The notes under the pieces: model-generated
Database searches by the model: none
What the model was told of the DNA's origin: nothing
What the model saw: the letters and a program-made list of their open reading frames with translations, nothing else
Program-made: the position numbers and the translations under genes
Source of the DNA: Escherichia phage DaisyDussoix
DNA: 64,000 nt
Strand: one strand, 5' to 3'
Sequence record: MZ501058
In this document: positions 19,081 through 30,067 of the stretch, in pieces
Numbering within the stretch: the stretch's first letter is position 1
How the letters are laid out: each line of letters starts with the position of its first letter

Positions 19081-19920
19081 AACAGCGAGCCGATTACGCT
19101 GAGTGAGTTTAGTGATTCCTAATAGGATAGCTATCCCACTGAATAGAGTCGGTGAGTTGGAGACTAGTAAGTACTCTTAGAGAGGCTACGAGCTAACGCT
19201 TATTGCTATTGATAGGGAACTGAAAATCTGCGGAAAACTCGGGAGCTGTCCCGAAATCTCGTAAACTCTTCTCTAGTTTATGTTAGTGGGGTGTCGAACT
19301 GACTTATGTGATAACACTGCCGTCCTAGTATAAACGGTAATATCAAACCGTAACTGGTGGAAGATGCAGGTTCGAATCCTGCGGTCGGAAAGAATCAGAT
19401 AACTCGGGCTTATACCGGATAAGCATTCGCTGCTGTAGTACATACTATGACGGTTCAGGAGGTACGCCGCCTGATCAGTATTAGGTTAGAATCGAAACAG
19501 CTAAACCACGAGGAAACCTGACGGCCTCAATCAAACTCGGAACTCGGGATCACTGCCTAGTGTGTGCCCCGTTTAACCTGAGACTAGGCATCCAGCTTCG
19601 CATCGAAAATCGGAGGTGCGATTCTAACAGACCGCGTGAATATGAGAGTGGGAAATGCTGACATGAGAGATGTCACTAATGGTGCCCAATAGTACAGGTA
19701 ATTCGCGATAATTCCTGTTGAGCGGCAGCAGTAGGCTGGGAGTCATGACCTAAGCCTAACCGAGTTCTTCACATACGGAGAACATAACCACAAAGTCACC
19801 CTGACTTAAACTGGAGGATATTATCTGACGGAAGGGCTGCAGAGCTTAATCTGAGGGGGCTGACCCTACCTACCGTCGGGTATCTTTAAGAGCTTTTATA
19901 AGAGTTCTTAAAAATACCTA
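19081..19920 (+). ncRNA. ORF-free transcribed block, candidate stable structured RNA(s) of unknown class
   Basis: 840 nt without ORF of 60 aa or more, directly downstream of a consensus T5-type promoter; many GC hairpins (GGATAGCTATCC, CGGGAGCTGTCCCG, GCCTAGT...ACTAGGC) and a tRNA-like T-arm at 19366-19382 that lacks a pairing acceptor strand. Confidence 0.3.
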
Positions 19921-21204: not shown

Positions 21205-21240
21205 AACCCTGTGTTCCCTGGAGAGCGCAGGGTTTTTCTG
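21205..21240 (+). terminator. rho-independent terminator after SPFH gene
   Basis: AACCCTG...CAGGGTTTTTCTG. Confidence 0.6.
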
Positions 21241-21275
21241 TATAACGTATTTATAAAATCAACTAGGAGATCAAA

Positions 21276-21795
21276 TATGAGTGTTGATGAGTTGACCCGG
21301 CACCTTCTATCTAGAGGGTTTGATACAGATAAATATCATTGCTGGTTAAGTCCGGAAGGATGGCTAACAGTCCCGTTGTATGATTTCTCTGGGATGTTGA
21401 GGGGCTATCAGACGTATAATCCTTCTGCTCCAAAAGGTCATGGTAAGTGTCCCTTTGAGGCTAAATATTTTACCTACTCTACTACCCAGTGTGTATGGGG
21501 ACTAGAAACTCTCAATGGAGATGAAAAAGTAGTATTGATTGCTGAATCTGTATTTAAGGCAGTTGCATTACATAATGCTGGTTATCCAGCCCTAGCAATG
21601 TTGGGTTCTACCCCAGGAAAAGCGTTATTAAAGCAACTGAAATTACTACCTTTTAAATTGGTAGCTGTCGGGGATAATGATCCTGCGGGTGAAAAATTTG
21701 CTAGAAAATTAAACGGCTTTGTTTCTCCTGTAGATGTGGATGAGATGTCTACCGAAAACTTGAAAAATTTTCTTGCTATGAAGCTAAATTTCTAA
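21276..21795 (+). CDS. Toprim-domain protein
   Basis: Internal ATG (MSVDELTRH) with AGGAGA RBS; VVLIAESVFKAVAL...VGDNDPAGEKFA resembles Toprim DxD region. Confidence 0.5.
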
Positions 21796-21911: not shown

Positions 21912-21986
21912 GGTTCTCAAGCTCATATGGTATGAGCACCCAGCTCATAACTGGAAGGTACGTAGGTTCGAATCCTCGGGGAGCCA
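21912..21986 (+). tRNA. tRNA-Met or Ile2 (anticodon CAU)
   Basis: Acceptor GGTTCTC/GGGAGCC with G-U pairs, D-stem GCTC/GAGC, loop CTCATAA, CCA; T-stem pairs imperfectly. Confidence 0.7.
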
Positions 21987-24209: not shown

Positions 24210-24233
24210 CCAAATTACTAAAGGAAAGAAGTA

Positions 24234-24752
24234 GTGCATACAAAAGTTTTTGATAGTTTGGTAAAGAAAGGCGTTGTTACTAATGAGCCCTTCTGTATAA
24301 CCGCAGAACTAATCCAAAGATTTATGGAAGAATATATAAATCTTTCAGGAACCAATGGTAACACCAAAAAGAATACAAATACTATGTATTCGAGAAAACT
24401 TGCTGCACTTTCCTTTATAAAGTTTAAGCAGGAAAATAAACTTCCTATTTCTGAAGGTTTTGTATACTGTATTAGTAATCCTGCATGGAAAAATCAGTAT
24501 AAAATAGGTATGAGTCAAAATCCGAAGGAGAGATTAGCTCAATATCAGACTTATTCCCCTTATAGGGATTATAAGTTAGAGCATTGGTCTTTTTGGTTTG
24601 ACAAACGAAAAGGTGAAAAACTAATTCACCAGTATTTCAAAGATTTAAAAGAACATGAGTGGTTTAGTATAAATTCTAGGGATCTTAGTAAATATCTAGG
24701 ACGTATTAACTCTAGTTCTGACTTATATGGTTCCTTAGCTCTAATTGGTTAG
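24234..24752 (+). CDS. T5orf172-domain (GIY-YIG-related) protein, putative homing endonuclease
   Basis: 172 aa; GFVYCISNPAWKNQYKIGMSQNPKERLAQYQTYSP matches the T5orf172/MUG113 core; 3' end overlaps tRNA-Asn. Confidence 0.75.
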   Translation: MHTKVFDSLVKKGVVTNEPFCITAELIQRFMEEYINLSGTNGNTKKNTNTMYSRKLAALSFIKFKQENKLPISEGFVYCISNPAWKNQYKIGMSQNPKERLAQYQTYSPYRDYKLEHWSFWFDKRKGEKLIHQYFKDLKEHEWFSINSRDLSKYLGRINSSSDLYGSLALIG

Positions 24753-24803
24753 AGCGGCATCTTGTTAAGTTGAGGGTTGCTGGTTCGAATCCAGCAGGAA
24801 CCG
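24729..24803 (+). tRNA. tRNA-Asn (anticodon GUU), weak anticodon stem
   Basis: Acceptor GGTTCCT/AGGAACC, D-stem GCTC/GAGC, loop TTGTTAA, T-arm GCTGG-TTCGAAT-CCAGC, CCA; overlaps 3' end of T5orf172 ORF. Confidence 0.7.
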
Positions 24804-24908
24804 CCAAATTCTGTGTAGAGTTAAGTAAACCGGTAGCCAACCAGCTATCATTGCTGACATCGAATTCAGCCACAGATACCATTTTCATTAATAACTGAGG
24901 AAACAAGC

Positions 24909-25561: not shown

Positions 25562-25672
25562 CAGTGCAGAACACGGAGCTAGCAATTAGGAAGTGCTGAC
25601 TCATGATAAGCTGCCTATGTACTTGCAAAGCGGTCGTGTCCAAGACTCGGACTCTTGCACTGAAAACAATCA
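25562..25672 (+). ncRNA. structured RNA candidate closed by 8-bp terminal stem
   Basis: 5' TCAGTGCA pairs with 3' TGCACTGA enclosing about 95 nt; no ORF; no canonical T-loop. Confidence 0.3.
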
Positions 25673-25674
25673 AA

Positions 25675-25788
25675 CATTCTAGCGTGGTTGATGGGGAAAC
25701 CAGCTTGGCTAGGGCAGAAGCTCGTTCGATTCGAGTGAAAGAATGGTTCTCGTAAGTCCGCACAAGTGATAATAGGTTCGAGTCCTGT
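25675..25788 (+). ncRNA. tRNA-like structured RNA candidate (two T-arm-like hairpins, 7-bp closing stem)
   Basis: 5' ATTCTAG pairs with 3' CTAGAAT; internal CTCG-TTCGATT-CGAG and ATAGG-TTCGAGT-CCTGT hairpins; too long for a tRNA. Confidence 0.3.
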
Positions 25789-25805
25789 CTAGAATGACAC
25801 TATAA

Positions 25806-25930
25806 AGTTTACTTATTATGTAGGTTCCGATAGATCGGAGGGTCTATTCTGGCATTTAAGAGAGGTCTCGCAAACGTCTTTGTCAGCCGTGGGGTTGGTA
25901 GCCTCCAGGTGGCCTACACAATAAGTAAAT
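25806..25930 (+). ncRNA. structured RNA candidate closed by about 16-bp terminal stem
   Basis: 5' TTACTTATTATGTAGG pairs with 3' CCTACACAATAAGTAA with one mismatch; no ORF. Confidence 0.3.
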
Positions 25931-25945
25931 TTATTAAAAATTCAT

Positions 25946-25974
25946 TTGCTATTCTGCTTTATTATCTGTATAAT
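25946..25974 (+). promoter_or_regulatory. T5-type early promoter (HNH gene 26007)
   Basis: AAAATTCATTTGCT ... TCTGTATAATATATTTTATAAAGTGAAGAG. Confidence 0.7.
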
Positions 25975-26006
25975 ATATTTTATAAAGTGAAGAGAAGGAA
26001 AGCTAA

Positions 26007-26582
26007 ATGGAAGGATTTAAGCCAATACCCGAGTATCCAGAATACTTAGTATCTGAGAAGGGAGAAATATACTCTACTATCAGTAATAAATATCTAAAAC
26101 CTACTATAAACGGAAAAGGCTATTACCACTTTGCAGTACGTGAAGATACTAATAAGTATAAATGGCTCCAGCTGCACAGAGTCATATGCAGAGTTTATGG
26201 CAATCTCCCCTCTTTAGATAGTGAAATGGAAGTAGATCATAATGATCGTAATAAGCTTAATATACTCCCTAGTAATTTAGTTGCCAGAGAGAAGAAAGAT
26301 CATTATGATAAAACTACACTGGAGAGAGGAAAAACTATAGGGGGCACTAGATGTATAGTCTGTAATAAGAGGATACACTCTGGTCGAGAATACTGTATAA
26401 ATTGCAGCCCAGTTAAACAGACTAAATCTCCAGAGATTACCGCAGAACAGATAGAATATTGGGTATCAAAGTATTCCTGGACTAGAGCTGCAAAAGAGTT
26501 AAATTTATCTGATAATGGTCTACGAAAACGGTATACTAAATTAACAGGTAAATCCCCAAAAGAAATTAAAAAATCAGGGTAA
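26007..26582 (+). CDS. HNH homing endonuclease, family B
   Basis: 191 aa; N-terminal PEYPEYLVSEKGEIYS module, EVDHNDRNKLN HNH motif, CxxC...CxxC Zn site; paralogs at 27903 and 29338. Confidence 0.85.
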   Translation: MEGFKPIPEYPEYLVSEKGEIYSTISNKYLKPTINGKGYYHFAVREDTNKYKWLQLHRVICRVYGNLPSLDSEMEVDHNDRNKLNILPSNLVAREKKDHYDKTTLERGKTIGGTRCIVCNKRIHSGREYCINCSPVKQTKSPEITAEQIEYWVSKYSWTRAAKELNLSDNGLRKRYTKLTGKSPKEIKKSG

Positions 26583-26649
26583 GGGCGATAAGGTACGCCA
26601 CCTCGTTTGGGGTGAGGAAATCTTTAGAGTTCGAGTCCTGCCGCACTGA
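26575..26649 (+). tRNA. tRNA-Pro (anticodon UGG)-like; acceptor and T-stem imperfect
   Basis: D-arm GGCG-ATAAGGTA-CGCC, stem CCTCG/TGAGG, loop TTTGGGG, CCA present; acceptor has two mismatches; overlaps HNH ORF end. Confidence 0.45.
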
Positions 26650-26658
26650 CCAAACAAC

Positions 26659-26733
26659 TGCGGGTTAGATCTCTGGTAGAGATCGCTAGTCTCATAAGCT
26701 AGAAAGAGGTAGGTTCGATTCCTGCACCCGCTT
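26659..26733 (+). tRNA. tRNA-Met (anticodon CAU) with 1-72 mismatch
   Basis: Acceptor TGCGGGT/ACCCGCT, D-stem GATC/GATC, stem CTAGT/GCTAG, loop CTCATAA, T-arm GTAGG-TTCGATT-CCTGC, CCA. Confidence 0.7.
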
Positions 26734-26756
26734 CCACTTTAATAGAGGATTTCGAA

Positions 26757-26924
26757 ATGAAAGTATTTCGATTAGTAGTAAGTGACAAACGTTTAGGTAA
26801 TAATACATCAAAATCCTTACTCGCTCATTACGGTAAAAATTGGGATGAAGTAATGGCAGAGTTTAGTACTAATCACCCTTACTTGAAAGTTCACTCTATT
26901 AAAGAAGTGTACAATGGTTACTAA
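26757..26924 (+). CDS. hypothetical small protein
   Basis: About 55 aa ORF (MKVFRLVVSDKRLG...) between tRNA genes; below ORF-track cutoff. Confidence 0.3.
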   Translation: MKVFRLVVSDKRLGNNTSKSLLAHYGKNWDEVMAEFSTNHPYLKVHSIKEVYNGY

Positions 26925-26925
26925 T

Positions 26926-27001
26926 AGATCGCTAGCTCAATAGGTTTAGTAGCATCCGACTTTTAATCGGAAGGTTCTGGGTTCGAGTCCCAGGCGATCT
27001 A
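26926..27001 (+). tRNA. tRNA-Lys (anticodon UUU)
   Basis: Acceptor AGATCGC/GCGATCT, stem TCCGA/TCGGA, loop CTTTTAA, T-arm CTGGG-TTCGAGT-CCCAG, CCA. Confidence 0.85.
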
Positions 27002-27008
27002 CCAAATT

Positions 27009-27079
27009 GCTCGGTTAGTTTAATGGGAGAACCCCGTCTTTACACGGCGGTTGAGATAGTTCAATTCTATCACCGAGTA
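27009..27079 (+). tRNA. tRNA-Val (anticodon UAC)
   Basis: Acceptor GCTCGGT/ACCGAGT, stem CCGTC/GGCGG, loop TTTACAC, T-arm GATAG-TTCAATT-CTATC, CCA. Confidence 0.8.
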
Positions 27080-27101
27080 CCAATTAACTCAAAATAAGGA
27101 A

Positions 27102-27461
27102 TTGCAAATGCAATTATCAAGCAAGATTCAAGGTTATTTCGGTCATGTAACAATGGAGTTCGCTATCTCTAAAGGTTGGGACTTCGAACAAGATTTAGCT
27201 GAGTTCTACAAAGATATTGATCTGAACGTACCATACATGGGACTTTCTACTGGTCAGGAGATCACAGAAGCCGATGTATTCAAGGCAAGTCAAGGTGAGG
27301 TAACACCTAGTTTTGCCGAGTTCTGGTTAGGCATTACGTTAAAAGAAGATGCACCAGATAGTGGTGTACTAATGTCTAGTATGCACTCTGGAAGTTCCGA
27401 TTACCTTTTCATTAGCGATGTTAAGGAAATACAAGAAGTCTGCAAAAATGTACTTGCTTGA
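27102..27461 (+). CDS. hypothetical protein
   Basis: 119 aa ORF with AAGGA RBS. Confidence 0.5.
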   Translation: MQMQLSSKIQGYFGHVTMEFAISKGWDFEQDLAEFYKDIDLNVPYMGLSTGQEITEADVFKASQGEVTPSFAEFWLGITLKEDAPDSGVLMSSMHSGSSDYLFISDVKEIQEVCKNVLA

Positions 27462-27482
27462 TGCTTAATTTCTTGTTATAAT
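27454..27482 (+). promoter_or_regulatory. T5-type early promoter reading into structured RNA 27530-27702
   Basis: TGTACTTGCT ... TCTTGTTATAATATTTATATAAATTGATGGGG. Confidence 0.65.
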
Positions 27483-27529
27483 ATTTATATAAATTGATGG
27501 GGAGAAATCCTCATCATAGTTCACTAAGG

Positions 27530-27702
27530 TATTAGCTCGACCTAGGACTGGCTGCCAAAAAGCACGATCCCTACAATTCGGGAGAAGTTCTAGATTAGTC
27601 CACTAGATTCAGCGGCAACTGAATAGTGTATCGGGTTTGCGAGATGACGCAGTTCCTTCCGCTCGAAGCGAAGGTGCTGTAGTTACGCCGAGCTAATAGC
27701 CT
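27530..27702 (+). ncRNA. structured RNA candidate closed by 9-bp stem
   Basis: 5' ATTAGCTCG pairs with 3' CGAGCTAAT; sits between a T5-type promoter and tRNA-Ala; no ORF, no T-loop. Confidence 0.3.
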
Positions 27703-27720
27703 TAGTAAACTAAATAATTT

Positions 27721-27792
27721 GGGCGAATAGTGTCAGCGGGAGCACACCAGACTTGCAATCTGGTAGGGAGGGTTCGAGTCCCTCTTTGTCCA
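27721..27792 (+). tRNA. tRNA-Ala (anticodon UGC)
   Basis: Acceptor GGGCGAA/TTTGTCC with G3-U70, stem CCAGA/TCTGG, loop CTTGCAA, T-arm GAGGG-TTCGAGT-CCCTC, CCA. Confidence 0.8.
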
Positions 27793-27800
27793 CCAAATTC

Positions 27801-27882
27801 GGGGCTATGCTGGAACTGGTAGACAATACGGCCTTAGATTCCGTAGCTTAAATGCGTGGGAGTTCGAGTCTCCCTAGCCCCA
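27801..27882 (+). tRNA. tRNA-Leu (anticodon UAG), type II
   Basis: Acceptor GGGGCTA/TAGCCCC, stem TACGG/CCGTA, loop containing TAG, long variable arm, T-arm GGGAG-TTCGAGT-CTCCC, CCA. Confidence 0.75.
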
Positions 27883-27902
27883 CCAACTCATAGGATTTAT
27901 GT

Positions 27903-28487
27903 ATGCAGTTTGTACCAATAAAAGATGCACCAGGGTATTTAGTAAATGAGGCGGGGGATGTGTTCTCTACATTTACTAATAAAGTTTTATCAAGATATAT
28001 AGTTGATGGATACCCTGCTGTAAAATTACAGATAAATGGTAAACAAACCTCTGTACTTATACACCGAATTATTTCTCATGTATTTGGGGACTTATATAAT
28101 CTATTTGACCCTGAACTAGAGGTAGATCATAAGGATAGAGATAGACTGAATCTATCTAAAGATAATCTTCAAGTCCTATCAAAAATAGAACATCAGAGGA
28201 AAACTAATAAAGATAATGGGTGGTCTGACAGTAGAGTACCTTGCCCCCTATGTGGGAGTCTAATGCTTCAGAGATCTGTAACATGTACAAATTGTAAGCC
28301 AAAACCTACAGGAAGGTTGATAAAACCAGAATTGTCTTTAGACGACATAACTGAAAAGGTTTTATTAATGGGGTGGGTTAAGGCAGCTAAAGAGTTAGAA
28401 GTATCAGAGTCCACTTTGCGCAGGAGGTATACTAAACTAACTGGATTAAGCCCAAAAGTATTAACAGAACAATGGAAAAGCAAGTAG
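27903..28487 (+). CDS. HNH homing endonuclease, family B
   Basis: 194 aa; EVDHKDRDRLN HNH motif, same architecture as 26007 and 29338. Confidence 0.85.
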   Translation: MQFVPIKDAPGYLVNEAGDVFSTFTNKVLSRYIVDGYPAVKLQINGKQTSVLIHRIISHVFGDLYNLFDPELEVDHKDRDRLNLSKDNLQVLSKIEHQRKTNKDNGWSDSRVPCPLCGSLMLQRSVTCTNCKPKPTGRLIKPELSLDDITEKVLLMGWVKAAKELEVSESTLRRRYTKLTGLSPKVLTEQWKSK

Positions 28488-28562
28488 ACTGGCGACTAAA
28501 CCCGATTGGAAAGTGGCTGACTTGTGAAAGCAGGCTTGAGAGTTCGAATCTCTCTTCTTCCG
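28474..28562 (+). tRNA. tRNA-like gene, long type; 3' half canonical, 5' half not confidently folded
   Basis: T-arm GAGAG-TTCGAAT-CTCTC, acceptor 3' strand TTCTTCC-G-CCA identical to tRNA-Ser(GCU) end; 5' strand GGAAAAG has one mismatch; overlaps HNH ORF stop. Confidence 0.4.
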
Positions 28563-28572
28563 CCAAACAATA

Positions 28573-28660
28573 GAAGATAGGACGTAGTGGTACGTAACCG
28601 GTCTTGAAAACCGGCCCGCTGTAGTGATACGGTGTAAGGGTTCGATCCCCTTACCTACCT
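28573..28660 (+). tRNA. tRNA-Ser (anticodon UGA)-like, type II; acceptor pairing not found
   Basis: D-arm ACGT-AGTGGT-ACGT, stem CCGGT/ACCGG, loop CTTGAAA, long variable arm, T-arm AAGGG-TTCGATC-CCCTT, CCA; 5' acceptor strand does not pair in my reading. Confidence 0.4.
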
Positions 28661-29029
28661 CCAAATCTTGAAGTATGCCGAAATCGGTAGACGGGGCTGC
28701 CTAAAAGGTTTATAGGGAACATCCACTCCCTACAACATACCTCATAAAGCGGCTGAGATAAATGGTCTATCTCGTGAAGGTTCAAGTCCTTCTGCTTCTT
28801 GATACATCTATGGCTCAAAGTGTAACGGTGCTATTTGATGCTCTTGGTAAGACTTCCCCGACATGCGTTCGGGAGTAAGCTGCTAAGACTAGAGTAGAAG
28901 AGTTTCTGAGAGCCGCCACAATTGAAAATTCGTACTCGTCTTGAGCTGCGCGCAATAGGAGATAACTTGATTAGTATTCTAGAACATGCTAATTGAGGAA
29001 GGTTTCGCTAACCCTGCGAGTTTTCAATT

Positions 29030-29103
29030 GTGGCTATATCATAATTGGTTAATGATCCTGATTGTGAATCAGGCCTATGTGGATTCGAATTCCACTAGCC
29101 ACC
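29030..29103 (+). tRNA. tRNA-His (anticodon GUG)
   Basis: Acceptor GTGGCTA/TAGCCAC, stem CCTGA/TCAGG, loop TTGTGAA, T-arm GTGGA-TTCGAAT-TCCAC, CCA. Confidence 0.85.
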
Positions 29104-29136
29104 CCAAATTAACTTAACTTAAATAGGAAATAAAAT

Positions 29137-29331
29137 ATGGCTGATTTCTGCAAACAATGCTCCATTGATATGTGGGGCAGAGATACTGGTGATCTTTCTG
29201 GTTTGATTACAGAAGCTGAGGTCAAAGAAGGTTATGGTGCAGTTGTGATTTGCGAAGGATGCGGAGTTATTCGAGTAGATCATGAAGGCAAACGTTTAGA
29301 AGAATCTGAGCCAACAACAATTTTTCCGTAG
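29137..29331 (+). CDS. Cys-rich small protein
   Basis: 64 aa with CKQC...CEGC pairs. Confidence 0.4.
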   Translation: MADFCKQCSIDMWGRDTGDLSGLITEAEVKEGYGAVVICEGCGVIRVDHEGKRLEESEPTTIFP

Positions 29332-29337
29332 AATAAG

Positions 29338-29919
29338 ATGAAATTAGAGAATTTCAAAGTAATTCCTGAGTATCCAGAATACTTAATCTCTCCATACGGA
29401 GAGGTTTACTCTACCAAGAGTAATAAATTACTTACACATCATTTAGGCAGTGCGGGATACCTGTTTGTAACGTTCTATGAACAGGGTAAAAATGTTTCTG
29501 TTGTACTGCATAGATTATTGGCTAGAGTATTTAAAGATTTACCTTCGCTAGAATCTGAACTAGAGGTGGATCACAAAGATAGGAATAAATTGAACTTTGC
29601 CCTGGATAATCTAGTTGTCATGACCAAGGAAGATCACAGAGTAAAAACTACACTTGAAAGAGGACATATAATAGGTGGTAACAAGTGCCCTTATTGTAGT
29701 AAACAAATAAATTCTTCAGCTAAAACTTGTTTTGATTGTAAACCTAAGAGTAACCCTGCTATTACAGCAGAGCAAATAGAATATTGGGTAATAAATTATT
29801 CGTGGGTTAAAGCATCAAAAGAGCTGGGACTATCTGATAATGGTCTACGTAAACGTTATAAATCCTTAACAGGTAAAGATCCAAAAAGTATTAAGAAGAA
29901 GGTTAGCCAAGTCGGTTAA
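29338..29919 (+). CDS. HNH homing endonuclease, family B
   Basis: 193 aa; EVDHKDRNKLN HNH motif; 3' end overlaps the following tRNA. Confidence 0.85.
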   Translation: MKLENFKVIPEYPEYLISPYGEVYSTKSNKLLTHHLGSAGYLFVTFYEQGKNVSVVLHRLLARVFKDLPSLESELEVDHKDRNKLNFALDNLVVMTKEDHRVKTTLERGHIIGGNKCPYCSKQINSSAKTCFDCKPKSNPAITAEQIEYWVINYSWVKASKELGLSDNGLRKRYKSLTGKDPKSIKKKVSQVG

Positions 29920-29968
29920 GGCTGGGGTCTCTGAAATCCTGATCAGTGGTTCAAATCCACTACTTTCT
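29897..29968 (+). tRNA. tRNA-Gln (anticodon CUG)
   Basis: Acceptor AGAAGGT/ACTTTCT, loop CTCTGAA, T-arm AGTGG-TTCAAAT-CCACT, CCA; overlaps last 22 nt of HNH ORF. Confidence 0.65.
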
Positions 29969-29978
29969 GCCAAACAAT

Positions 29979-30053
29979 TGGGGATTAGCTTAGCTTGGCC
30001 TAAAGCTTCGGCCTTTGAAGTCGAGATCATTGGTTCAAATCCAATATCCCCTG
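29979..30053 (+). tRNA. tRNA-Gln (anticodon UUG)
   Basis: Acceptor (T)GGGGAT/ATCCCCT, stem TCGGC/GTCGA, loop CTTTGAA, T-arm ATTGG-TTCAAAT-CCAAT, CCA. Confidence 0.65.
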
Positions 30054-30067
30054 CCAGCCAAATTAAT

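What the first reader, a model, noticed from the sequence alone, without database searches (positions are those of the whole stretch)
26007..29968. HNH homing-endonuclease genes end inside or directly abut tRNA genes
The three family-B HNH ORFs (26007, 27903, 29338) each stop within or a few nt before a tRNA or tRNA-like gene. The T5orf172 ORF at 24234 overlaps tRNA-Asn. This suggests repeated endonuclease insertion next to tRNA genes and possible coupling of endonuclease translation with tRNA processing. The tRNAs adjacent to two of them are the ones with defective stems.
Basis: seen in the sequence. Interest (0 to 1): 0.5.

Follow-up and report, generated by a model that had tools for sequence, protein, structure and literature searches.

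The report
Homing endonuclease genes fused to phage tRNAs
In this T5-like phage, four selfish endonuclease genes each run a few bases into the next tRNA gene; this layout is already known from phage T5, but here two of the neighbouring tRNAs are broken hybrids that look like scars of the endonucleases' arrival.

Summary
The window is a T5-like phage (Tequintavirus) tRNA cluster. All four endonuclease-type ORFs end inside the next tRNA or tRNA-like element:
- T5orf172 overlaps tRNA-Asn by 24 nt.
- hegB (F-TflIII) overlaps a tRNA-Pro-like element by 8 nt.
- hegC (F-TflI) overlaps a tRNA-Ser(GGA)-like element by 14 nt.
- hegD (F-TflII) overlaps tRNA-Gln(CUG) by 23 nt.

Five non-endonuclease ORFs upstream of tRNAs stop 1-21 nt before them.

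The arrangement is already known. The same overlaps are annotated in T5 (AY543070) and Salmonella phage 5 (AJ604531). Down-regulation of F-Tfl and SegB expression through tRNA processing was proposed in 2008.

Comparison with 29 related loci shows that each gene is present or absent as a unit. Each fills exactly one inter-tRNA spacer and travels with its own divergent downstream tRNA allele.

What is new here is that the two defective tRNAs are exact chimeras. The Pro-like element is 53/54 identical to the hegB-linked allele on its 5' side and 18/18 identical to a BF23-type allele on its 3' side. The Ser-like element is 31/32 identical to the T5 allele on its 5' side and 53/53 identical to another allele on its 3' side. 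The crossovers lie in the T loop and the anticodon loop. I read these as homing scars. Neither chimera occurs in 50,697 phage records. Coupling to RNase P processing is geometrically plausible but untested. Interest is low to moderate.

The parts
24234..24752 (+). T5orf172/MUG113-domain ORF (172 aa), orthologue of T5.069. It is a putative GIY-YIG-like free-standing homing endonuclease. Its stop codon lies in the D loop of tRNA-Asn.
   Evidence: Pfam PF13455 at 1.8e-15 and PF10544 at 5.8e-12. It is 98% identical to T5.069. It is absent from 10 non-redundant relatives, with boundaries at 24217/27 and 24781.
24729..24806 (+). tRNA-Asn(GTT), the allele linked to T5orf172. It overlaps the ORF by 24 nt.
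   Evidence: ARAGORN and Rfam 55.4 bits. The allele is found in all loci carrying T5orf172, and a different allele in all loci lacking it.
25946..25974 (+). Sigma-70-like promoter (TTGCTA-17-TATAAT) upstream of hegB. It corresponds to promoter P13a of the T5 and phage 5 annotations.
   Evidence: (10 of 12 positions match), with positional correspondence to annotated P13a. The scan as a whole is not above chance.
26007..26582 (+). hegB, orthologue of the H-N-H endonuclease F-TflIII of Salmonella phage 5 (191 aa).
   Evidence: HNH_3 and NUMOD4 domains. It is 99.5% identical to phage 5 hegB and 100% identical to the GEC_vB_N5 protein. T5 lacks it and has T5.066 plus an intact tRNA-Pro at this site.
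26575..26652 (+). Chimeric tRNA-Pro(TGG) pseudogene. The 5' part is the hegB-linked allele and the 3' part is the BF23/chee24-type allele. The crossover lies in the T-loop GTTCGA (26629-26634). hegB's last 8 nt are tRNA positions 1-8.
   Evidence: The 5' part is 53/54 identical to allele d and the 3' part is 18/18 identical to allele c. The T and acceptor stems are broken. Rfam scores 11.1 bits. ARAGORN finds it only at a relaxed threshold. It is not present in 50,697 phage records.
27801..27885 (+). tRNA-Leu(TAG), T5-type. Its 3' end is the left boundary of the hegC cassette.
   Evidence: Homology with relatives lacking the gene ends at 27886.
27903..28487 (+). hegC, orthologue of the T5 H-N-H endonuclease F-TflI (194 aa).
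   Evidence: HNH_3 domain. It is 99.5% identical to T5 hegC. The cassette 27887-28472 replaces a roughly 110-nt spacer in relatives lacking the gene.
28474..28565 (+). Chimeric tRNA-Ser(GGA) pseudogene. The 5' part is the hegC-linked T5 allele and the 3' part is the L012-type allele. The crossover lies in the anticodon loop TTGGAAA (28506-28512). hegC's last 14 nt are tRNA positions 1-14.
   Evidence: The 5' part is 31/32 identical to the T5 allele and the 3' part is 53/53 identical to the L012 allele. There are extra mismatches in the acceptor and anticodon stems. ARAGORN finds it only at -ps90. It is not present in the phage records.
29338..29919 (+). hegD, orthologue of the T5 H-N-H endonuclease F-TflII (193 aa).
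   Evidence: HNH_3 and NUMOD4 domains. It is 94% identical to T5 hegD and 99% to the IrisVonRoten protein. It is homologous to I-HmuI, PDB 1U3E, E = 2.6e-10. A full copy occurs in only 17 phage records.
29897..29972 (+). tRNA-Gln(CUG), the hegD-linked allele. It overlaps hegD by 23 nt and is structurally sound here.
   Evidence: ARAGORN and Rfam 54.9 bits, against 39.1 bits for the T5 copy that AY543070 flags as a pseudogene.
29979..30056 (+). tRNA-Gln(UUG), T5-type allele. It lies inside the hegD cassette and is co-inherited with hegD.
   Evidence: Homology with relatives lacking the gene resumes only at 30054 or 30135.

Best explanation
The region is the tRNA cluster of a T5-like phage. It has been invaded four times by free-standing homing-endonuclease genes: three I-HmuI-like HNH genes (orthologues of F-TflIII, F-TflI and F-TflII) and one T5orf172 (GIY-YIG-like) gene.

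Each gene fills exactly one spacer between tRNA genes. None has a stop codon of its own. Each reads into the 5' end of the next tRNA until the first in-frame stop, in the acceptor or D-arm region, which gives the 8-24 nt overlaps.

Each gene travels as a cassette with its own divergent allele of the downstream tRNA, presumably one that resists cleavage. Phages without the gene carry a different allele, the presumed target.

In this phage, hegB and hegC arrived by break-induced gene conversion whose tract ended inside the tRNA. That left tRNA-Pro and tRNA-Ser(GGA) as 5'-donor/3'-recipient hybrids with mismatched stems, which are probably non-functional.

Because each ORF's stop codon lies 3' of the RNase P cleavage site of a co-transcribed tRNA, 5' maturation of that tRNA would cut off the end of the endonuclease mRNA. 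This probably keeps expression of these nucleases low.

Shown here: the overlaps, orthology, presence/absence boundaries, allele linkage, the chimeras and the stem defects. Inferred: cleavage specificity, homing as the recombination trigger, loss of tRNA function, and the RNase P effect.
For: - Identity of the region: it is 93.5% identical to the T5 tRNA region.
- Orthology and domains.
- Prior annotation: the same overlaps are annotated in T5 and phage 5, namely T5.069/tRNA-Asn, hegC/tRNA-Ser2, hegD/tRNA-Gln2 and hegB/tRNA-Pro.
- Presence/absence with boundaries at tRNA edges.
- Frequencies among about 550 T5-like records: hegB about 12-14, hegC about 26, hegD 17 plus 13 remnants, T5orf172 78.
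- Linkage of gene and tRNA allele was perfect in the loci compared.
- Exact mosaic structure of the two defective tRNAs, with stem defects and sub-threshold tRNA scores.
- Gene-decay stage seen in relatives: the last 20-44 nt of hegD are retained next to the linked tRNA-Gln2.
- The same architecture occurs at other sites in relatives: T5orf172 paralogues run into tRNA-Lys, tRNA-Glu and tRNA-Leu, and an HNH gene runs into tRNA-Ala.
- In the window, ORFs that are not endonuclease genes stop 1-21 nt before tRNAs.
- T5orf172 genes are described as homing endonuclease genes that are abundant in T5-like phages (PMC10448857).
- The processing-coupled down-regulation idea is published for SegB and F-TflI/II (PMC2330249).
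- No terminator-like site lies between any endonuclease ORF and its tRNA.
Against: - No cleavage, homing or RNA-processing data exist for this phage.
- The crossovers lie in only 6-7 nt of shared sequence. Ordinary homologous recombination would rarely resolve there, so the exact repair route is unclear.
- General recombination between co-infecting phages, without endonuclease cleavage, could give the same mosaics.
- A few small accessory ORFs in relatives that are not recognisable endonucleases also overlap tRNAs: a 63-aa ORF into tRNA-Cys and a 47-aa ORF into tRNA-Val. Overlap is therefore not exclusive to endonuclease genes.
- The Ser-like chimera has only two extra mismatches and might retain some function.
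- The T5orf172-linked tRNA-Asn allele also occurs without the gene in Klebsiella phages, so linkage is not absolute across the family.
- The hegB-linked tRNA-Pro allele scores below the Rfam threshold even when intact.
Confidence: 0.8

Rival explanations
1. The overlap is only a passive by-product of flush insertion in a tightly packed cluster. The ORF simply runs on to the first stop codon in the tRNA, and RNase P processing has no meaningful effect on endonuclease expression.
For: The C-terminal residues encoded by tRNA sequence (2-7 aa) are not conserved among the three HNH paralogues. The stops fall at TAA or TAG triplets in the acceptor and D-arm region. The whole cluster is compact, with other ORFs ending 1-21 nt from tRNAs. 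Some small accessory ORFs that are not endonuclease genes also overlap tRNAs.
Against: In the window the overlap is seen in 4 of 4 endonuclease genes and 0 of 5 other ORFs. It recurs at four or more other sites in relatives with unrelated endonuclease genes. The same geometry in T4 segB/tRNA-Arg was linked to processing (PMC2330249). A passive origin and a regulatory consequence are not mutually exclusive.
Confidence: 0.4
2. The endonuclease-adjacent tRNA-like elements are kept mainly as RNA-processing signals, a form of tRNA punctuation that defines the mRNA 3' end, rather than as decoding tRNAs. Loss of decoding function is therefore tolerated or even typical.
For: GenBank notes from the T5 and phage 5 annotators bear on this. 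The endonuclease-linked alleles T5 tRNA-Asn, T5 tRNA-Ser2 and phage 5 tRNA-Pro could not be converted into amber suppressors, and T5 tRNA-Gln2 is flagged as a pseudogene. The alleles of tRNA-Asn (phage 5) and tRNA-Pro (T5) without a linked endonuclease gene could be converted. The intact hegB-linked tRNA-Pro allele is below the Rfam tRNA threshold.
Against: The anticodon is an identity element for many synthetases, so failure as a suppressor does not prove loss of function. The linked tRNA-Asn and the window's tRNA-Gln(CUG) score as normal tRNAs, at 55 bits. In the window's Pro-like chimera the T and acceptor stems that RNase P recognises are themselves damaged, which argues against selection for processing.
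Confidence: 0.2
3. The two defective tRNAs are artefacts of assembling a mixed population of related phages, or they result from ordinary point-mutation decay unrelated to the endonuclease genes.
For: Neither chimera is found in any of 50,697 phage records. T5-like phages often co-occur in the same samples.
Against: The switch points share only 6-7 nt, which is far below assembler k-mer sizes. Each half is a near-perfect match to a known allele (53/54 and 18/18; 31/32 and 53/53), which is incompatible with random decay. Both events lie directly 3' of an endonuclease gene. The flanks continue smoothly at 98.5% identity with the recipient-type backbone.
Confidence: 0.05

Closest known systems
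Phage T5 and Salmonella phage 5 H-N-H endonucleases F-TflI (hegC), F-TflII (hegD) and F-TflIII (hegB) in the tRNA gene region (GenBank AY543070, AJ604531; Akulenko et al. 2004, PMID 15456135)
   Same: The proteins are orthologous at 94-100% identity and sit at the same sites. The overlaps with tRNA-Ser2, tRNA-Gln2 and tRNA-Pro are the same (14, 23 and 8 nt), as is the T5.069/tRNA-Asn overlap.
   Different: No database phage carries all three HNH genes plus T5orf172 together. Only the three T5 records cover at least 80% of the region, and T5 lacks hegB. In T5 and phage 5 the linked tRNA-Ser2 and tRNA-Pro alleles are complete, whereas here they are hybrids with a second allele.
Phage T4 SegB, a GIY-YIG free-standing homing endonuclease in the T4 tRNA cluster (PMC2330249)
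   Same: It is a free-standing endonuclease gene embedded between tRNA genes. It drives preferential inheritance of the tRNA region with co-conversion. Its ORF end coincides with a tRNA 5' processing site, and that was proposed to limit its expression.
   Different: The nuclease family and the phage family are different. For SegB, cleavage and marker exclusion were shown experimentally, whereas here they are inferred. SegB's processing site lies between the last codon and the stop codon; here 8-24 nt of coding sequence lie inside the tRNA.
I-HmuI (PDB 1U3E), the intron-encoded HNH nicking endonuclease of Bacillus phage SPO1
   Same: It shares the N-terminal and HNH catalytic core (E = 2.6e-10 over residues 14-111 of hegD). 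The Pfam domains are HNH_3 and NUMOD4.
   Different: I-HmuI is encoded inside a group I intron. The genes here are free-standing and use a tRNA gene, not an intron, as their neighbour.
T5orf172-family homing endonuclease genes at boundaries of genetic exchange (Barth, Dunham & Seed 2023, PMC10448857)
   Same: The T5orf172 domain genes are described as homing endonuclease genes that are enriched in T5-like phages and sit at recombination boundaries. Here the T5orf172 cassette boundary coincides with a switch of tRNA-Asn allele.
   Different: That work did not address the tRNA overlap (the text search found no such passage). Nuclease activity of this particular protein is untested.

Membership tests
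I-HmuI-like HNH free-standing homing endonucleases (F-TflI/II/III group) | HNH (His-Me finger) catalytic domain of the HNH_3 type, usually with a NUMOD4 N-terminal motif | tested here: met
   PF13392 is above its cut-off in all three proteins and PF07463 in two of the three. The HNH motif residues D77, H78 and N90 (numbered as in the first sequence of the alignment) are invariant, within ...EVDHKDRN...N.... There is an I-HmuI match at E = 2.6e-10.
I-HmuI-like HNH free-standing homing endonucleases (F-TflI/II/III group) | Orthology to the named T5 and phage 5 proteins at the same genomic site | tested here: met
   Identity is 99.5% to F-TflI, 94.3% to F-TflII and 99.5% to F-TflIII, with the same flanking tRNAs.
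I-HmuI-like HNH free-standing homing endonucleases (F-TflI/II/III group) | Presence/absence polymorphism at a fixed site among otherwise collinear genomes | tested here: met
   Boundaries were defined against relatives lacking each gene. The genes occur in roughly 2-5% of about 550 T5-like records.
I-HmuI-like HNH free-standing homing endonucleases (F-TflI/II/III group) | Site-specific cleavage or nicking of the allele that lacks the gene, and unidirectional transfer in mixed infection | not testable with these tools
   This needs enzyme assays and phage crosses. The paper that characterised F-TflI/II/IV (PMID 15456135) is not in the library.
T5orf172 / GIY-YIG-like homing endonuclease genes | T5orf172 (PF10544) or MUG113 domain | tested here: met
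   PF13455 at 1.8e-15 and PF10544 at 5.8e-12.
T5orf172 / GIY-YIG-like homing endonuclease genes | Mobility: presence/absence with linked flanking polymorphism | tested here: met
   12 non-redundant loci with the gene all carry one tRNA-Asn allele, and 10 without it carry another. The linked allele also exists without the gene in Klebsiella phages.
T5orf172 / GIY-YIG-like homing endonuclease genes | Demonstrated nuclease activity | not testable with these tools
Functional tRNA gene (applied to the Pro-like 26575-26652 and Ser-like 28474-28565 elements) | Intact cloverleaf stems and a score above tRNA-detector thresholds | tested here: not met
   Rfam RF00005 gives 11.1 and 19.1 bits against a gathering score of 29. 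Default ARAGORN makes no call. The Pro-like T stem is 2 of 5 paired and its acceptor stem 5 of 7. The Ser-like element has an A5-C68 mismatch and an anticodon stem 3 of 5 paired. RF00005 also misses the intact class II Ser2 alleles, so for the Ser-like element the stem counts and ARAGORN carry the weight.
SegB-type control of endonuclease expression by tRNA processing | The ORF 3' end or stop codon lies at or beyond the RNase P site of a downstream tRNA | tested here: met
   The stop codons lie 8-24 nt inside the tRNA or tRNA-like elements.
SegB-type control of endonuclease expression by tRNA processing | Co-transcription of the ORF and the tRNA | tested here: inconclusive
   No terminator-like site lies between them, and a P13a-like promoter lies upstream of hegB (annotations). 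The pattern scans are not above chance, and there are no RNA data.
SegB-type control of endonuclease expression by tRNA processing | RNase P cleavage of the endonuclease transcript, with reduced protein output as a result | not testable with these tools
   This needs RNA end mapping and expression assays.

The most novel reading that the evidence does not exclude
The endonuclease/tRNA fusions are a built-in RNase P-dependent off-switch. Maturation of the tRNA turns the endonuclease mRNA into a non-stop message. The chimeric junctions in the T loop of tRNA-Pro and the anticodon loop of tRNA-Ser(GGA) mark the in-vivo cleavage or repair-priming points of F-TflIII and F-TflI. Repeated invasions of this kind would steadily replace or erode the phage's tRNA set. 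That set is now known to matter for escaping tRNA-cleaving host defences, so selfish endonucleases would be shaping an anti-defence arsenal.
Probability: 0.3. Interest if true: 0.55.

Novelty: already known. Interest (0 to 1): 0.27.

Why it matters
The core finding re-discovers a documented feature of phage T5 biology, so it does not open a new question by itself.

Its value is as a clean natural example of intron-less homing in which the target genes are tRNAs. The two chimeric tRNAs give nucleotide-level end points of conversion tracts. These amount to testable predictions of where F-TflIII and F-TflI act.

They also show that homing can cost a phage functional tRNAs. Phage tRNAs are now recognised as counter-measures to tRNA-cleaving bacterial defences (PMC10644984, PMC13096335). 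The interplay between selfish endonucleases and the tRNA repertoire could therefore affect host range.

Tried and rejected
- Rfam tRNA scores for tRNA-Ser(GGA). The RF00005 model misses even the intact class II Ser2 alleles of T5, phage 5 and L012. I used stem-by-stem pair counts and ARAGORN thresholds instead.
- An exact-match scan of IMG/VR with the conserved tRNA-fMet gave only 15 loci. Most of the comparison therefore rests on GenBank phage records fetched one at a time.
- The paper that characterised F-TflI/II/IV (PMID 15456135) is not held. I could not compare the predicted junctions with any mapped cleavage sites.
- A sequence search of the PDB with the T5orf172 protein found nothing useful.
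- Promoter and terminator pattern scans were not above shuffled expectation. I use them only for positional agreement with published promoter P13a and for the absence of terminator-like sites between the ORFs and the tRNAs.
- Random decay of the two tRNAs is rejected because each half matches a known allele almost perfectly.
- An assembly chimera is judged unlikely because the switch points share only 6-7 nt.
- Calling the arrangement exclusive to endonuclease genes is rejected. Two small accessory ORFs in relatives also overlap tRNAs.
- I did not run the large protein-database searches or structure prediction, because orthology to named proteins was already decisive.

Full report
**What the window is.** The stretch 23400-31300 matches the tRNA gene region of Escherichia phage T5 at 93.5% identity over 86% of its length. 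It also matches 553 T5-like (Tequintavirus and related) records in the phage collection. ARAGORN finds 23 tRNA genes on the + strand between 19.9 and 31.3 kb, and Rfam agrees.

**Check of the observation.** The four ORFs are intact.

| ORF | Coordinates | Downstream element | Overlap | Detection of the element |
|---|---|---|---|---|
| T5orf172 | 24234-24752 | tRNA-Asn 24729-24806 | 24 nt | ARAGORN and Rfam, 55.4 bits |
| hegB | 26007-26582 | tRNA-Pro(TGG)-like 26575-26652 | 8 nt | Rfam 11.1 bits; ARAGORN only at -ps95 |
| hegC | 27903-28487 | tRNA-Ser(GGA)-like 28474-28565 | 14 nt | Rfam 19.1 bits (partial); ARAGORN only at -ps90 |
| hegD | 29338-29919 | tRNA-Gln(CUG) 29897-29972 | 23 nt | ARAGORN and Rfam, 54.9 bits |

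The two tRNA-like elements sit exactly where relatives have annotated tRNA-Pro and tRNA-Ser2 genes.

Within the window, all four endonuclease-type ORFs overlap the next tRNA or tRNA-like element. The five other ORFs that precede tRNAs stop 1-21 nt upstream, and Fisher's exact test gives p = 0.008. That count includes the two elements found only at relaxed thresholds. It leaves out a 44-aa ORF lying across tRNA-Trp and tRNA-Phe, which I judged spurious.

**Identity of the genes.**
- The three HNH ORFs carry the Pfam HNH_3 domain, and two of them also carry NUMOD4. The fourth ORF carries the MUG113/T5orf172 domains.
- The 27903 ORF is 99.5% identical to T5 hegC (annotated as H-N-H endonuclease TflI).
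- The 29338 ORF is 94% identical to T5 hegD (F-TflII).
- The 26007 ORF is 99.5% identical to hegB (F-TflIII) of Salmonella phage 5. T5 lacks this gene.
- hegD is homologous to the nicking homing endonuclease I-HmuI (PDB 1U3E, E = 2.6e-10).
- The 24234 ORF is the orthologue of T5.069.
- T5orf172 genes have been described as homing endonuclease genes that are abundant in T5-like phages (PMC10448857).

**The arrangement is already on record.**
- The curated T5 annotation AY543070 shows T5.069 overlapping tRNA-Asn, hegC overlapping tRNA-Ser2(GGA), and hegD overlapping tRNA-Gln2(CUG), which it flags as a pseudogene.
- AJ604531 shows hegB overlapping tRNA-Pro by 8 nt.
- The discussion of the T4 SegB paper (PMC2330249) covers the processing idea. 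It states that segB expression may be limited by processing at the tRNA-Arg 5' end, which falls between the last codon and the stop codon. [quoted passage not shown]

**Insertion boundaries.** I compared the window with 29 loci from T5-like phages by BLAST and alignment.
- Relatives without T5orf172 lose homology just after tRNA-Cys (24217-24227) and regain it at 24782, inside the T loop of tRNA-Asn.
- Relatives without hegB lose homology at 25990-26012 and regain it at 26629.
- Relatives without hegC that have the T5-type tRNA-Leu lose homology at 27886, the last base of tRNA-Leu(TAG). They regain it at 28473, the first base of tRNA-Ser2. The 586-nt cassette replaces a spacer of about 110 nt.
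- Relatives without hegD lose homology at 29304-29336 and regain it only at 30054 or 30135. That cassette therefore includes both T5-type tRNA-Gln genes.
- Each gene thus fills an inter-tRNA spacer exactly.

Approximate numbers of records carrying each gene, among about 550 T5-like records:

| Gene | Records |
|---|---|
| hegB | 12-14 |
| hegC | 26 |
| hegD | 17, plus 13 with only a remnant |
| T5orf172 | 78 |

**Linked tRNA alleles.** The sequence just downstream of each gene falls into discrete, strongly diverged alleles.
- All loci with T5orf172 (12 non-redundant) carry one tRNA-Asn allele. All 10 non-redundant loci without it carry another.
- The T5-type tRNA-Gln2 allele is found only with hegD or with its remnant.
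- The tRNA-Pro allele 'd' is found only with hegB.
- The tRNA-Ser2 allele 'b' is found only with hegC.
- This is the pattern expected for intron-less homing. The endonuclease cuts the allele of genomes that lack it, and it spreads together with a resistant allele.
- One caveat: the T5orf172-linked tRNA-Asn allele also occurs without the gene in Klebsiella T5-like phages.

**The two defective tRNAs are recombinant.**
- The window's Pro-like element is identical to the hegB-linked allele d at 53 of 54 positions 5' of the T-loop motif GTTCGA (26629-26634). It matches the BF23/chee24-type allele c at 18 of 18 positions 3' of the motif. The reciprocal comparisons give 18/55 and 10/18.
- The Ser-like element matches the T5 hegC-linked allele at 31 of 32 positions 5' of the anticodon-loop motif TTGGAAA (28506-28512). 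It matches the allele of locus L012 at 53 of 53 positions 3' of the motif. The reciprocal comparisons give 25/33 and 30/55.
- Because the two halves of each stem now come from different alleles, the stems no longer pair. The Pro-like T stem has 3 mismatches out of 5 and its acceptor stem has 2 out of 7, whereas the parental allele d pairs at 21 of 21 positions. The Ser-like element gains an A5-C68 mismatch in the acceptor stem and a second mismatch in the anticodon stem.
- Downstream of the Pro junction the window matches the allele-c phages at 98.5%, against about 93% for the other phages.
- Neither chimera occurs in any of the 50,697 phage records. The best full-length matches are 91.7% and 82.5%, and these are the intact linked alleles.
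- I read these chimeras as the ends of gene-conversion tracts left when hegB and hegC entered a backbone with BF23/chee24/L012-type tRNA alleles.
- The shared sequence at each junction is only 6-7 nt, so the junctions may lie at or close to the break or priming points. That step is inference.

**The life cycle seen in relatives.**
- Phage FFH_1 (L015) and phage Elw (L021) keep only the last 44 nt of hegD, fused in frame to the upstream ORF and next to the T5-type tRNA-Gln2.
- Several more records keep only the last 20-40 nt. This is the decay stage.
- HildyBeyeler has hegB followed by a deletion running from the middle of tRNA-fMet to beyond tRNA-Val.
- Other endonuclease genes show the same architecture elsewhere in the cluster. 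T5orf172 paralogues overlap tRNA-Lys (+10), tRNA-Glu (+10) and tRNA-Leu(TAG) (+15), and one abuts tRNA-Pro (0). A 128-aa HNH gene overlaps tRNA-Ala (+10).
- The pattern is therefore general in this phage family.
- It is not strictly exclusive to endonuclease genes. Two small accessory ORFs in relatives also run into tRNA-Cys and tRNA-Val.

**Function of the linked tRNAs.**
- By covariance-model score, the linked tRNA-Asn (55.4 bits) and the window's tRNA-Gln(CUG) (54.9 bits) look normal.
- T5's own tRNA-Gln2 is weaker, at 39.1 bits. The intact hegB-linked tRNA-Pro is below the Rfam threshold.
- The GenBank notes record anticodon-replacement tests. T5 tRNA-Asn, T5 tRNA-Ser2 and phage 5 tRNA-Pro, all linked to an endonuclease gene, could not be converted into amber suppressors. 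Phage 5 tRNA-Asn and T5 tRNA-Pro, which have no linked gene, could be converted.
- This suggests reduced function of the linked alleles. It is not proof, because the anticodon is an identity element for many synthetases.

**How it most likely works.**
- Shown: selfish endonuclease cassettes sit flush against tRNA 5' ends and carry their own tRNA allele.
- Inferred from the established behaviour of free-standing homing endonucleases (T4 SegB, SegF and others): the enzyme cuts the tRNA allele of a co-infecting phage, and repair copies the cassette.
- Inferred: the ORFs have no stop of their own and terminate at TAA or TAG triplets in the acceptor and D-arm region. The 2-7 tRNA-encoded residues are not conserved among the paralogues.
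- Inferred: the ORF and the tRNA lie on one transcript. A P13a-like promoter sits at 25946-25974, and no terminator-like site lies between any ORF and its tRNA. RNase P cleavage at tRNA position 1 would then remove the stop codon and produce a non-stop message, which should lower output of the endonuclease.
- In the window's Pro-like chimera the stems that RNase P recognises are damaged, so this control may be weakened for hegB.

**Verdict.** The phenomenon is already annotated and discussed for T5, phage 5 and T4. The window adds a previously unrecorded combination of all four genes and two exact chimeric tRNA pseudogenes, which look like homing scars and predict where two of the enzymes act. 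That is a useful detail but not a new kind of system.

Noticed in passing
window 21912-21986 and 19319-19390: Rfam finds tRNA-like matches that ARAGORN does not call, at 38.2 and 29.3 bits. The first corresponds to the tRNA-Ile2 (CAU) of the phage 5 annotation. The second lies inside the 'RNAX' stable-RNA region upstream of tRNA-Arg.
   Followed up: no
window about 24809-24880, 25660-25905, 27520-27700 and 28664-29029: These regions correspond to the stable 'tRNA-like' RNAs of unknown function in the T5 annotation: RNA3, RNA2/RNAIV, RNA2H and RNA1/RNAI/RNAIII. RNA1 (28664-28800) reads like a tRNA with an internal insertion. They could be older relics of the same endonuclease-driven tRNA erosion.
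   Followed up: no
window 27102-27461 and 28664: A 119-aa ORF lies between tRNA-Val and RNA2H. It is absent from T5 but present in SA001, I14, S130 and chee24. Conversely, the T5.063 ORF between tRNA-Ser1 and RNA1 is missing here.
   Followed up: no
L015 4057-4263 (FFH_1), L021 6455-6661 (Elw); also Es2, WP85, DT571/2, Gostya9: These are decayed hegD copies. The last 20-44 nt of hegD remain next to the T5-type tRNA-Gln2. In FFH_1 and Elw they are fused in frame to the upstream ORF, giving MADFCKQC...DPKSIKKKVSQVG.
   Followed up: partly
L027 4728-5840 (HildyBeyeler): hegB with its intact linked tRNA-Pro is followed by a deletion. The deletion removes the 3' half of tRNA-fMet, tRNA-Lys, tRNA-Val and the 119-aa ORF.
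   Followed up: partly
L022 3500-3951 (SA001), L021 4944-5395 (Elw); L023 3273-3814 (VAH1); L019/L024 90-384; L004 861-1429; L012 4409-4994: Further endonuclease genes in relatives end in or at tRNAs. A 128-aa HNH gene runs into tRNA-Ala (+10 nt). T5orf172 paralogues run into tRNA-Lys (+10), tRNA-Glu (+10) and tRNA-Leu(TAG) (+15), and one abuts tRNA-Pro (0).
   Followed up: partly
Klebsiella T5-like phages (for example OY979429, PQ569716), matching window 24726-24807: The tRNA-Asn allele that is linked to T5orf172 in E. coli and Salmonella phages occurs at 96-98% identity without the endonuclease gene in Klebsiella phages. This is either the source lineage of that allele or the result of clean gene loss.
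   Followed up: no
window 21211-21795: A 194-aa ORF ends 21 nt before tRNA-Ser(GCT). Its counterpart in phage 5 is annotated as a 'putative DNA primase-related protein'. It does not follow the overlap rule.
   Followed up: no
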